Positions 375 to 64,000 of a DNA stretch of 64,000 nucleotides are shown one piece after another. The position numbers and the translations under genes are program-made. The notes beneath the pieces are model-generated. The model had not been told where the DNA came from. It saw nothing but the letters and a program-made list of their open reading frames with translations, and did no database searches. The DNA comes from Naegleria gruberi (taxonomy: Eukaryota). Position 1 is the first letter of the stretch; the number at the start of each line of letters is the position of its first letter. The stretch is taken from NCBI GenBank assembly GCA_000004985.1, contig GG738872.1. One strand, written 5' to 3'.

Positions 375-445
375 GCGTCGATGGTTTAGTGGTAGAATAC
401 GGCGTTGCCATCGCCGTGACCCGGGTTCAATTCCCGGTCGACGCA
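375..445 (+). tRNA. tRNA-Gly (anticodon GCC)
   Basis: 71-nt cloverleaf. Acceptor stem GCGTCGA pairs with TCGACGC. Anticodon loop is TTGCCAT (GCC). T-arm GGGTTCAATTCCC matches the B-box consensus. Discriminator is A. A T5 run follows about 15 nt downstream. Confidence 0.9.
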
Positions 446-27015: not shown

Positions 27016-27087
27016 TTCCCGTGTAGTCCAATGGCTAGGATACCTGGCTTTCACCCAGGAGGTCCGGGTTCAATTCCCGGCATGGGA
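27016..27087 (+). tRNA. tRNA-Glu (anticodon TTC)
   Basis: 72-nt cloverleaf. Acceptor TCCCGTG pairs with CATGGGA (one G-U). D-arm TAGTCCAATGGCTAGGATA. Anticodon loop CTTTCAC (TTC). T-arm GGGTTCAATTCCC. Discriminator G. A T4 run lies 5 nt downstream. Confidence 0.9.
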
Positions 27088-27092
27088 GAATC

Positions 27093-60704: not shown

Positions 60705-62309
60705 ATGCAACAAACTTCATCTCCTTCTGCCTTCACCCAACATCACCACTATTCCCTTCAATCGGTTCAAGTTTCTTCCTTTGATTTATCCAAGAGAGCC
60801 GTCGAAAGTGGTCGAATGGATCCCGAGAAATTTGACCAAGAATTTTCTTCAAATCCTTCATCAGCTTCATCTTTAAATGAATCAAATGATTTGATTGGAC
60901 AATCAATTCCAATTTTTGAAACTTCCTTCCGAAGGGATCGTTATCAGAAAATTGTTGAACAAAAAGGATCGAGTTTGAATTTGTGGCCAAATTTTGCAAA
61001 GTGTATGTTTTTTAGAATCGAGTGATGAGGAATTTAATATTTGTGTCGATTCGGATGATGTGATGGAATTTGTATTAATATGAATTTTTAATCGAATGGA
61101 AAATTTGTTGGTGGGTTTTTTAGTTTATCAAGCAAGAGATTTTAAAGCTGGAGAATATAAAACGAGTAAGTTTTAGGAATTAATGATGTAGGAATGGCTA
61201 ATGGATGAAATAGTTATTGAAATTGATTGTAAAACTTCAGAAAGTGTAAGTGTGATTTGGTAGTTTATTCTGATTGACTGATTGTTTCGAATAGCCATCA
61301 TCATTCTTAATGTATTTCATGTCTAGATTCAATTCATACTCTCATAAATATGTAGTTCCAATCCTAGACACATACATTACAAAGAATTCCTGTTGTATTG
61401 TTACTCCTTACTACACTCAGGGAAGTATGCTTCGTTTACTCAAGACAAGATTGGAAAAGCAGAAATTCCTCAAAATTCAACAAATTTTGTGCTATTTTTC
61501 TCAATTATTGGAAGCTATTAATTATATTCATACTAATTTAAAGACAACTGTATGTATTGGAATGATTGAAAAATATGTAACCAATTTTTTATCCATATTT
61601 ATTCGAATTGGATGGCATAATACACTGAATCAACATAAAGATGTATGGTGGAATTTCCTTAGATAACATTTTTATGGATGAAACTCTGGAGAATATTTCC
61701 TTGGGTTATGTTGGAATTCACATTCATACCATGAATTTATATCTGAACAATTATTTCAACAAGTCAGAATTGTCCATGCTTGGTGGAGCCAACTTGTTGC
61801 AATCAAAATCAGAAACGACCTATAATTCCAATAACTCTTCTGATGATCTCGATGAAAAGCAAGTTGATAATCCAGAACAGCTCACTAAAAACGATGAAAT
61901 TAAGGAAATTATTTCCAAATCCTCAACTACAAATGAAGAACTAGCTGGATGGCAATATTTGGATGTTTATGCTTGTGCCATTTCAATTTATCAATTAGTG
62001 ACACTCTCCCTTGATATGTCCTCTGAGGAATCTCAAAATATTGACAAGAACTCAATTCAAGCCTCTTATACCTATCAATTAGTAAGAACTTTGCAACAAC
62101 AGCAACAATTATCAGAAGAAGAATTATCATATTGGAAGGAATATATCAAAAATAAGATTGGAAGAGTATATCACAATAAGAAACTCATCAATTTATTAAC
62201 TGAAATGCTCAATATCAGTCAATCCAAATTAACAGCTCAAATGTGCATCAAATTACTGAAAGAAATTCCACCAGAAGACGATGACGATGAAGAAAATGCT
62301 CACTACTAG
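60705..62309 (+). CDS. Pseudokinase-like protein, multi-exon. The 3' exons 61295-61549 and 61641-62309 are confident. The 5' exons between 60705 and 61294 are unresolved.
   Basis: Kinase subdomains IV-VIa are recognisable (HKYVVPILDTYITKNSCCIVTPYYTQGSMLRLL...INYIH). The catalytic loop reads MYGGISLDNIFMDE instead of HRDLKPENILLDE. The DFG equivalent is LGY. A 91-nt GTATGT...AAAG intron (61550-61640, phase 0) links the two 3' exons. The C-lobe is helical (WQYLDVYACAISIYQLV). Confidence 0.5.
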
Positions 62310-62561: not shown

Positions 62562-64000
62562 ATGAGCGATTACGATGATGAAGACTTGGAATTTGCCATT
62601 GATGATGAGGAAATTGAAATGACGCCAGGTAAGTGGGAGAATTGTTTGCTAATGTGTTTGTGTTTGTCGGTTATTAAAAGGTACTGGACAATCCTATCGA
62701 TTTGATGAAGATGATGCCTTCATGATCGATGATGAAGATGGTACAGCCTACGATGGACAAGAGTTTGATGCAAAGGATGTTGAATATGTAATTCTCACCC
62801 AGGAAGAAATTGTTCAAGAACAAGAGAAGGAAATTGCTCGTATTGTGGAGATTGTTGGAGTGACTGATACATCGGCAAAAGTCTTGTTGAGAAAGTGTGG
62901 TTGTAAGTTTCTTCAAGTTTGATATTATTCATCAAAATGATCAATCTTATAATAATACTAATCAATAATACAATTAAATAGGGAAGGCAGAAAGAGTAAG
63001 TTAACAATATCTAGGAATAATAGTAGTCATAGTATTATAATAATAATTATTTACAATTTGATCATCAATATTAGGTTTTAAATATTTTCTTCGAGAATGG
63101 AAAGGAAGGTCTTTTGAAAGCAGCAGGTTTGAGTGAGAATGATCTTCGTGATGCTGACAGTTTGAAAGTATCGGGATGTGAAACATTTGAATGTCCACTC
63201 TGTTATGATGATGTACCTGCTGATCAATGTACAAAATTACCAGCTTGTTCTCATGCTTTTTGTAATAATTGTTGGAAGGCACACATTGAAAGTAAGATCA
63301 AGGAAGGAAAATTACAAATTCTTTGTCCTGAACTTGGATGTGCTTGTATTGTTGATGATGATCTTATTAGTCAATTTGCTAGTTCTCAAAATAAGAAGAA
63401 ATTTGATGCTAAATTTATTGAATCCTATGTTGAAGACAATGTTAGTATTAAGTGGTGTCCATCTGCACCTTGTTGTGGAAGATGTGTCCGAGTTAATGTA
63501 CCTCACACTACACCACTTGAAATTGATTGCAAATGTGGATGTTCATTCTGTTTCAATTGTTTGAAATTCCCACACTTACCAGCTACTTGTAATATGATGA
63601 CTGCTTGGACTGTAAAATGTCAAAATGATAGTGAAACATTTAACTGGTTGGCTGTAAATACAAAAGATTGTCCAAAATGTCACACTCCAATTGAAAAGAA
63701 TGGTGGTTGTAACCATATGCATTGTCATAAATGTCAACACCACTTTTGTTGGGTTTGTTTATGTGATTTCAATCACACAACATACCAACACTCTTGCGGA
63801 AGATTTGAAGAAAAGAATACTGAAAATGCCAGAGTCTCTTTGGAAAGATATTTGCACTACTATAACAGATATAAAGCTCACGAAGATTCAAGAACTAGAG
63901 AAGAAAAGACCAGAGAAGTAATCAAGAAAAAGATGGTTGAAATGTTTGAATTGAGGCCAAACTCTGCTTGGATTGAAGTTCAATGGGTTGAACAAGCCAT
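62562..64000 (+). CDS. ARIH1: Ariadne-family RBR E3 ubiquitin ligase (ARIH1-like), 5' partial within the window; exons 62562-62628, 62681-62902, micro-exon 62982-62995, 63075-beyond 64000
   Basis: Acidic N-terminus, then a UBA-like segment (...SAKVLLRKCGWKAERVLNIFFENGKEGLLKAAGL) assembled across a 14-nt micro-exon. RING1 follows (CPLCYDDVPADQCTKLPACSHAFCNNCW), then IBR (WCPSAPCCGRCV...CKCGCSFCFNC), then RING2 (CPKCHTPIEKNGGCNHMHCHKCQHHFCWVCL), then the start of the Ariadne domain. The frame is open to the window end. Confidence 0.85.

What the first reader, a model, noticed from the sequence alone, without database searches (positions are those of the whole stretch)
62982..62995. 14-nt micro-exon in the ariadne RBR E3 ligase gene
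Joining exon 2 (ending ...LLRKCG, phase 1) directly to exon 3 (VLNIFFENG..., which must be entered in phase 0) is impossible. Inserting GGAAGGCAGAAAGA (bounded by AAATAG| and |GTAAGT) restores the frame. It yields ...LLRKCGWKAERVLNIFFENG..., which matches the conserved ARIH1 UBA-like segment (HWDKEKLMERYFDGN). The micro-exon is flanked by two introns of exactly 79 nt each. Micro-exons of this size are easily missed by gene finders.
Basis: seen in the sequence. Interest (0 to 1): 0.6.

Follow-up and report, generated by a model that had tools for sequence, protein, structure and literature searches.

The report
Missed 14-base exon in Naegleria ariadne gene
A real 14-base coding exon sits between two 79-base introns in the Naegleria gruberi ariadne (ARIH1-like) ubiquitin-ligase gene; it supplies an invariant tryptophan that the public gene model lacks, but it is an ordinary kind of annotation error and the same exon is already annotated in two sister species.

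Summary
The window is Naegleria gruberi, and the gene is an ariadne/ARIH1-like RBR E3 ligase. Exon 2 ends at 62902 in phase 1. GGAAGGCAGAAAGA (62982-62995) is bounded by AAATAG| and |GTAAGT, with a 79-nt intron on each side. Including it gives ...LLRKCG-WKAER-VLNIFF. Skipping it shifts the frame and gives a stop at codon 117.

Evidence for the exon:
- Of 831 frame-keeping GT..AG configurations, this one scores best against a homolog profile. It scores 63.7 bits, against 43.4 bits for the public model.
- None of 300 shuffles of the 172-nt stretch reaches the real score.
- Trp is invariant in 118 of 118 homologs and aligns with human ARIH1 W140, a residue used in cullin-NEDD8 binding mutants.
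- The N. fowleri and N. lovaniensis orthologs carry an annotated 14-nt exon at the same place with the same phases.
- Willaertia magna has GWKAEK contiguous with the upstream exon and keeps only the downstream intron.

The public N. gruberi protein (XP_002676359.1) instead reads 14 nt into the intron. This gives CKFLQ, loses the UBA_ARI1 Pfam match, and also omits exon 1.

No N. gruberi transcript evidence could be reached with these tools. This is a gene-model correction of a known kind, and interest is low.

The parts
62562..62628 (+). Exon 1 (ATG...ACG CCA G, 67 nt, ends in phase 1). It is absent from the public N. gruberi model.
   Evidence: Translation. The TP|G phase-1 junction is shared with the N. 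fowleri and N. lovaniensis orthologs. The public model starts at the internal ATG at 62722.
62629..62680 (+). Intron 1, 52 nt, GTAAGT...AAAAG
   Evidence: The position is conserved in N. fowleri (184 nt) and N. lovaniensis (165 nt).
62681..62902 (+). Exon 2 (222 nt). It encodes the acidic region and helices 1-2 of the UBA-like domain, and ends ...LLRKCG plus T (phase 1).
62903..62981 (+). Upstream intron, 79 nt, phase 1, GTAAGT...TACTAAT...AAATAG. It splits the Trp codon as T|GG.
   Evidence: It is present at the same codon position in N. fowleri (56 nt) and N. lovaniensis (53 nt), and absent in Willaertia magna.
62903..62916 (+). The 14 nt of this intron that the public model XP_002676359.1 reads as coding (GT AAG TTT CTT CAA gives CKFLQ), followed by the weak donor GTTTGA at 62917.
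   Evidence: Windows 62722-62916 plus 63075 onward translate to an exact 373-aa prefix of P0001. This version scores 21.7 bits against UBA_ARI1, below the 26.9-bit cutoff.
62982..62995 (+). The 14-nt micro-exon GGAAGGCAGAAAGA. It encodes (T)GG AAG GCA GAA AGA, that is W97 K A E R101.
   Evidence: Orthologous 14-nt exons are at L001:3503-3516 and L006:1987-2000.
62996..63074 (+). Downstream intron, 79 nt, phase 0, GTAAGT...ATTAG
   Evidence: The position is shared with N. fowleri (52 nt), N. lovaniensis (44 nt) and W. magna (60 nt).
63075..64000 (+). Exon 4. It covers helix 3 of the UBA-like domain from VLNIFF, then RING1, IBR, Rcat and the start of the Ariadne domain. It runs off the end of the window.

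Best explanation
62982-62995 is a real, constitutively included 14-nt internal coding exon of the Naegleria gruberi ariadne/ARIH1-like RBR E3 ubiquitin-ligase gene.

Splicing. Two short introns of 79 nt each flank the exon, and each has a perfect GTAAGT donor and a TAG acceptor. Each intron is most likely recognised on its own (intron definition) and the two are removed one after the other. This is because a 14-nt exon is too short to hold spliceosomal complexes on both sides at once. That step is inference from general splicing knowledge.

Protein. The exon completes the Trp codon split by the upstream intron (T|GG) and adds K-A-E-R. [quoted passage not shown] That residue is part of the surface whose mutation weakens binding to neddylated cullin.

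Consequences of other splicings. Leaving the exon out shifts the frame and truncates the protein before RING1. The public N. gruberi model avoids the frameshift by wrongly extending exon 2 by 14 nt into the intron.
For: Shown here:
- The anatomy and the frame arithmetic.
- This is the best of 831 alternative in-frame splice configurations, by 9.7 bits over the next best and by 20 bits over the public model.
- None of 300 shuffles reaches the real score.
- Pfam UBA_ARI1 scores 35.9 bits over the full profile (1-41) with the exon. With the public-model peptide it scores 21.7 bits and the match stops at profile position 28, exactly at the exon boundary.
- The full public protein has no UBA_ARI1 hit (precomputed list).
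- Trp is present in 118 of 118 homologs, Glu in 111 of 118, and Arg/Lys in 107 of 118. W97 is the only invariant residue N-terminal of RING1.
- The N. fowleri ortholog FDP41_002440 and the N. lovaniensis ortholog C9374_012509 have an annotated 14-nt exon GGAATTCTGAGAAG ((W)NSEK) at the identical place, with phases 1/0 and different intron lengths.
- The N. fowleri models were built with BRAKER1 and RNA-seq (PMC6831594).
- Willaertia magna encodes GWKAEK, with TGGAAGGCTGAAAAG running on directly from the upstream exon.
- W97 aligns with ARIH1 W140. The V123A/I124A/W140A mutant loses CUL1-NEDD8 binding (PMC3817463).
- In the AlphaFold model of the N. fowleri ortholog, W88-K92 lie at the loop/helix 3 junction of a confident three-helix bundle.
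Against: - No N. gruberi transcript or junction read could be examined. The protein database holds only the public model for this species, a second search found nothing, and the metagenome loci were distant relatives.
- The annotated micro-exons in the sister species come from automated pipelines. The literature warns that many annotated micro-exons lack read support (PMC8831610).
- Sequential removal of the two introns is inferred, not shown.
- GTAAGT is not enriched in the window overall: 19 observed against about 22 expected on the + strand. The two consensus donors alone are therefore modest evidence.
Confidence: 0.93

Rival explanations
1. The public gene model is right. Exon 2 runs 14 nt further to 62916, a single 158-nt intron (GTTTGA...TAG, 62917-63074) is removed, and the protein reads ...CGCKFLQVLNIFF.
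For: This model is also in frame and free of stops, and it is the deposited model XP_002676359.1. It ranks 6th of 831 configurations.
Against: - It replaces a Trp that is invariant in 118 of 118 homologs with Cys.
- It drops UBA_ARI1 below Pfam's cutoff, 21.7 bits against 26.9.
- It ignores a perfect GTAAGT donor in favour of GTTTGA.
- It scores 20 bits lower on the homolog profile.
- It is contradicted by the exon structure in two congeners and by the contiguous GWKAEK in Willaertia.
- It matches a documented failure mode, in which a missed micro-exon is replaced by extension of an adjacent exon with no change in protein length (PMC8831610).
Confidence: 0.03
2. The micro-exon is a regulated cassette. 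Besides the productive mRNA, a substantial share of transcripts either skips it or uses the cryptic 62917 donor. Skipping shifts the frame, gives a stop at codon 117 and probably triggers nonsense-mediated decay. The cryptic donor gives an in-frame variant lacking Trp. Either outcome would tune ligase level or its coupling to cullins.
For: Skipping gives an early stop. An in-frame alternative exists. Regulated micro-exons are known in animals and in a fungus (PMC7821500, PMC11121469).
Against: - Nothing here points to regulation.
- Both donors are perfect consensus, and there is no conserved intronic element: the intron alignment shows only the splice sites conserved.
- The local RNA shows no significant structure (z = -0.63).
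- With hundreds of GT/AG combinations available, the existence of one in-frame alternative is expected by chance.
Confidence: 0.05
3. The locus is a decaying or non-functional copy, and the apparent micro-exon is a chance arrangement in a frameshifted gene.
For: Only that no transcript evidence for N. gruberi was available.
Against: - The rest of the gene is an intact open frame with all Zn-binding Cys/His and the Rcat GGCNHMHC motif conserved.
- The protein is 71% identical to the N. fowleri ortholog.
- The chance tests are negative.
- The same exon is conserved in three species, with coding-compatible substitutions: WKAER against WNSEK.
Confidence: 0.01

Closest known systems
The orthologous 14-nt exon annotated in Naegleria fowleri FDP41_002440 (XP_044563333.1) and Naegleria lovaniensis C9374_012509 (XP_044554151.1)
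   Same: Same gene, same codon position, same length (14 nt) and same phases (1 in, 0 out). It starts with GG, completing the split Trp codon, and encodes W-x-x-E-[KR].
   Different: - The sequence is 8/14 identical (GGAAGGCAGAAAGA against GGAATTCTGAGAAG), giving WKAER against WNSEK.
- The flanking introns are 79/79 nt against 56/52 and 53/44 nt, and are unalignable apart from the splice sites.
- In N. gruberi the exon is not in the public annotation.
Misannotated ultra-short micro-exons (15 nt or less) in plant genomes (Yu et al. 2022, PMC8831610)
   Same: Short coding exons inside conserved protein domains that annotation pipelines miss. In some cases the predictor extends an adjacent exon, so protein length is unchanged and a domain hit is lost. 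Size and phase are conserved across species, and introns flanking micro-exons can be lost in some lineages.
   Different: The organism here is a heterolobosean amoeba with sparse, very short introns, not a plant. Here the wrong model uses a canonical GT-AG intron rather than a non-canonical one. There is no RNA-seq validation here.
Human ARIH1/HHARI UBA-like domain (PDB 4KBL, 7B5L; Kelsall et al. 2013, PMC3817463)
   Same: The micro-exon residues align with ARIH1 W140-K144 (NWDKEKL) in the UBA-like domain. W140 is one of the three residues whose joint mutation weakens binding to neddylated CUL1.
   Different: The comparison is at the protein level only. Whether the N. gruberi ligase binds neddylated cullins was not tested. 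Intron positions in the animal genes were not examined.

Membership tests
Coding micro-exon (internal exon of 15 nt or less) | Internal exon bounded by a canonical 3' splice site (AG) upstream and a 5' splice site (GT) downstream, 15 nt or shorter | tested here: met
   AAATAG|GGAAGGCAGAAAGA|GTAAGT, 14 nt
Coding micro-exon (internal exon of 15 nt or less) | Inclusion is needed to keep the reading frame and yields homolog-consistent residues | tested here: met
   Skipping gives a stop at codon 117. Inclusion is the top-scoring of 831 configurations. W is present in 118 of 118 homologs.
Coding micro-exon (internal exon of 15 nt or less) | Size and phase conserved in orthologs | tested here: met
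   N. fowleri and N. lovaniensis both have 14 nt with phases 1/0
Coding micro-exon (internal exon of 15 nt or less) | Transcript junction reads across both junctions in this species | not testable with these tools
   No N. gruberi transcript-derived sequence was reachable
[quoted passage not shown] | UBA-like domain N-terminal of RING1 | tested here: met
   PF21235 UBA_ARI1 at 32.5-35.9 bits against a cutoff of 26.9, but only with the micro-exon included
[quoted passage not shown] | RING1-IBR-RING2 (Rcat) module with a catalytic Cys | tested here: met
   - IBR, IBR_1 and IBR_2 are above their cutoffs.
- The generic RING models are below cutoff (21.5 against 27.3), but all Zn ligands are invariant in the alignment.
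- GGCNHMHC aligns with the ARIH1 Rcat motif GGCNHMVC.
[quoted passage not shown] | C-terminal Ariadne domain | tested here: met
   PF19422 scores 45 bits on the part inside the window and 104.6 bits on the full public protein
[quoted passage not shown] | Activation by binding a neddylated cullin-RING ligase | not testable with these tools
   This is a biochemical property. Only the conservation of the W140-equivalent residue was shown.

The most novel reading that the evidence does not exclude
The 14-nt exon was born when a new intron was inserted into the invariant Trp codon in the Naegleria ancestor, after its split from Willaertia and next to an older phase-0 intron. The exon is now used as a switch. 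Skipping it (frameshift, probable decay) or using the cryptic GTTTGA donor (an in-frame W-to-C variant unable to dock on neddylated cullin) would turn the ligase off in particular life stages, such as the amoeba-to-flagellate transition.
Probability: 0.04. Interest if true: 0.45.

Novelty: new member of a known kind. Interest (0 to 1): 0.2.

Why it matters
The finding corrects the reference protein of a model protist (XP_002676359.1 / UniProt D2VHM7 / NAEGRDRAFT_34212). Five wrong residues include the one invariant tryptophan of the UBA-like domain. About 36 N-terminal residues are also missing. Together these are enough to remove the domain from automated annotation and to distort any alignment or structure model built from that entry.

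It is also a clean example outside plants and animals of a micro-exon of 15 nt or less that is conserved in size and phase. The sister genus lacks one flanking intron, so the case is usable in studies of intron gain and loss in Heterolobosea. It does not change any general understanding of splicing or of RBR ligases.

Tried and rejected
- Intron duplication. The two equal-length introns are not duplicates: alignment score 3.0 against a shuffle mean of 3.25, and the orthologous introns differ in length.
- Functional RNA in the introns. There is no Rfam hit in the locus and no significant fold (z = -0.63). The minus strand carries only short chance ORFs.
- Transcript evidence for N. gruberi. P0001 is not on record in the contig index and its cluster has a single member. 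A second protein search with the N-terminal 152 aa returned nothing at all, which is a limit of the tool. The metagenome scan gave only relatives at 31-36% identity.
The N. fowleri ortholog was modelled instead.
- Antiquity of the flanking introns. The Naegleria paralog, Anaeramoeba and a plant ARI gene have no intron at either position. Gain versus loss of the upstream intron remains open.
- Literature on Naegleria micro-exons. Only two incidental co-mentions turned up.

Full report
**What is in the sequence.** The window has about 33-34% G+C. Its best protein match is a 'predicted protein [Naegleria gruberi]' at 99% identity. That fits the published 33% G+C of N. gruberi NEG-M (PMC8296547).

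- Exon 1 is 62562-62628.
- Next comes a 52-nt intron.
- Exon 2 is 62681-62902 and ends ...TGT GGT T, in phase 1.
- Next comes a 79-nt intron, GTAAGT...AAATAG (62903-62981).
- The 14 nt GGAAGGCAGAAAGA are at 62982-62995.
- Next comes a second 79-nt intron, GTAAGT...ATTAG (62996-63074).
- An open frame runs from 63075 to the end of the window.

With the 14 nt included, the protein reads ...LLRKCG-WKAER-VLNIFFENG.... Without them the frame shifts and a stop follows at codon 117.

**What the gene is.** The spliced product matches Pfam UBA_ARI1, IBR, IBR_1/2 and Ariadne. It also matches human ARIH1 structures at E = 4e-69 and ARIH2 at 1e-54. It is therefore an ariadne-subfamily RBR E3 ubiquitin ligase.

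**Is the micro-exon more than chance?** I built an HMM of this region from 119 homologs, leaving out N. gruberi itself. I then scored all 831 stop-free, in-frame configurations with one or two GT..AG introns around the site. The next best scores 54.0 bits and the public model 43.4 bits.

In 300 dinucleotide-preserving shuffles of the 172-nt stretch, the best configuration never reached the real score. The real score is 52.8 bits on a shorter peptide, against a shuffle mean of 33.6, sd 4.4 and a maximum of 51.9. The test is conservative. The shuffles keep the exon's own composition and demand only GT and AG, not the two perfect GTAAGT donors.

The residues supplied are those that homologs require. 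Trp is present in 118 of 118 homologs, Glu at +3 in 111 of 118, and Arg/Lys at +4 in 107 of 118. In a 47-sequence alignment, W97 is the only invariant residue N-terminal of RING1.

Pfam gives the same answer. UBA_ARI1 scores 35.9 bits over the whole profile with WKAER. With the public-model peptide it scores 21.7 bits, below the 26.9-bit cutoff. In that case the match ends at profile position 28 of 41, exactly at the exon boundary.

**Comparative evidence.** I fetched the orthologous loci and mapped the annotated proteins back onto the DNA.
- N. fowleri FDP41_002440 has a 14-nt exon GGAATTCTGAGAAG at L001:3503-3516, flanked by introns of 56 and 52 nt.
- N. lovaniensis C9374_012509 has the identical 14-nt exon at L006:1987-2000, with introns of 53 and 44 nt.
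- In both species the upstream intron splits the Trp codon as T|GG (phase 1) and the downstream intron is in phase 0, exactly as in the window.
- The N. fowleri models were produced with BRAKER1 using RNA-seq (PMC6831594).
- Willaertia magna, the sister genus, encodes GWKAEK. Its TGGAAGGCTGAAAAG runs on directly from the upstream exon, and it has only the downstream phase-0 intron of 60 nt.

The peptide is thus conserved with or without the upstream intron. The exon length has stayed at 14 nt while the flanking introns changed freely in length and sequence.

A Naegleria paralog, Anaeramoeba and a plant ARI gene have no intron at either position. The two introns are therefore specific to this lineage. 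Whether the upstream one was gained in Naegleria or lost in Willaertia cannot be decided from these data.

**What the public annotation does.** The deposited N. gruberi protein is EFC43615.1 / XP_002676359.1 / NAEGRDRAFT_34212 / D2VHM7. It reads ...LLRKCGCKFLQVLNIFF. Windows 62722-62916 plus 63075 onward translate to an exact 373-residue prefix of it.

The predictor therefore read 14 nt into the intron, straight through the GTAAGT donor. It then used a weak GTTTGA donor at 62917 and removed one 158-nt intron. That is the same number of bases as the micro-exon, so the frame is kept, but five residues are wrong.

The model also starts at an internal Met and lacks exon 1. The TP|G junction of exon 1 is conserved in the sister species. 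As a result the public protein has no UBA_ARI1 hit. This failure mode, a missed micro-exon replaced by extension of an adjacent exon with unchanged protein length and lost domain hits, is described for plants (PMC8831610).

**How it most likely works.** At the protein level, W97 aligns with human ARIH1 W140 (numbering from the alignment). In HHARI, the V123A/I124A/W140A triple mutant abolishes or strongly reduces binding to CUL1-NEDD8. In TRIAD1, W100A reduces binding to CUL5 (PMC3817463).

An AlphaFold model of the N. fowleri ortholog has mean pLDDT 85, and above 90 in this region. It shows helices at 54-72, 76-85 and 90-108. The micro-exon residues W88-K92 are therefore the end of the helix 2-helix 3 loop and the first turn of helix 3 of the UBA-like bundle.

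At the RNA level, the introns are short (52-79 nt) and have strong consensus donors. The upstream intron has a TACTAAT branch-like site about 20 nt from its acceptor. This fits intron-definition splicing, with each intron recognised on its own. A 14-nt exon cannot hold complexes on both sides at once, so the two introns are probably removed one after the other (general knowledge; also discussed in PMC8831610). That step is inference. No RNA structure or known RNA family is involved. The equal intron lengths are a coincidence.

**What is missing.** No N. gruberi transcript could be examined. The two competing mRNAs have identical length, so only sequence-level evidence will separate them. Diagnostic k-mers are given in the next steps.

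**Verdict.** This is a new member of a well-known kind, a conserved ultra-short coding exon missed by an automated annotation. The orthologous exon is already public in two sister species. It is a useful correction to a reference proteome and a tidy comparative example, but it would not surprise a specialist.

Noticed in passing
window 62562-62721: The public N. gruberi model starts at the internal ATG at 62722 (MIDDEDG...). It omits exon 1 and the first part of exon 2, about 36 residues of the acidic N-terminus. The exon 1 junction TP|G (phase 1) is conserved in N. fowleri and N. lovaniensis.
   Followed up: yes
L006:2846-2868 (N. lovaniensis ortholog): There is a second short exon of 23 nt (GATGTAACCACATGCACTGTCAG) inside the Rcat motif. 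It is created by an extra 59-nt intron with a perfect TACTAAC branch site. That intron is absent in N. fowleri and N. gruberi.
   Followed up: partly
window 63075-64000 against L001:3569-4654: N. gruberi has one uninterrupted exon where the N. fowleri ortholog has four further introns and N. lovaniensis has five. W. magna has a single intron in the whole gene. Intron content of this one gene therefore differs widely within the Naegleria/Willaertia group.
   Followed up: partly
window 375-445 and 27016-27089: Two tRNA genes, Gly(GCC) and Glu(TTC), were found by both ARAGORN and Rfam.
   Followed up: no
window 61641-62309: The upstream + strand ORF (222 aa, ends TAG at 62309) has no Pfam match. 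It is the 3' part of the neighbouring gene, and its identity was not pursued.
   Followed up: no
tool behaviour: A homolog search with the N-terminal 152 residues returned no hit at all, not even the N. gruberi protein itself. The acidic, low-complexity N-terminus or the word index is the likely cause. This is a limit of the tool, not a biological result.
   Followed up: no
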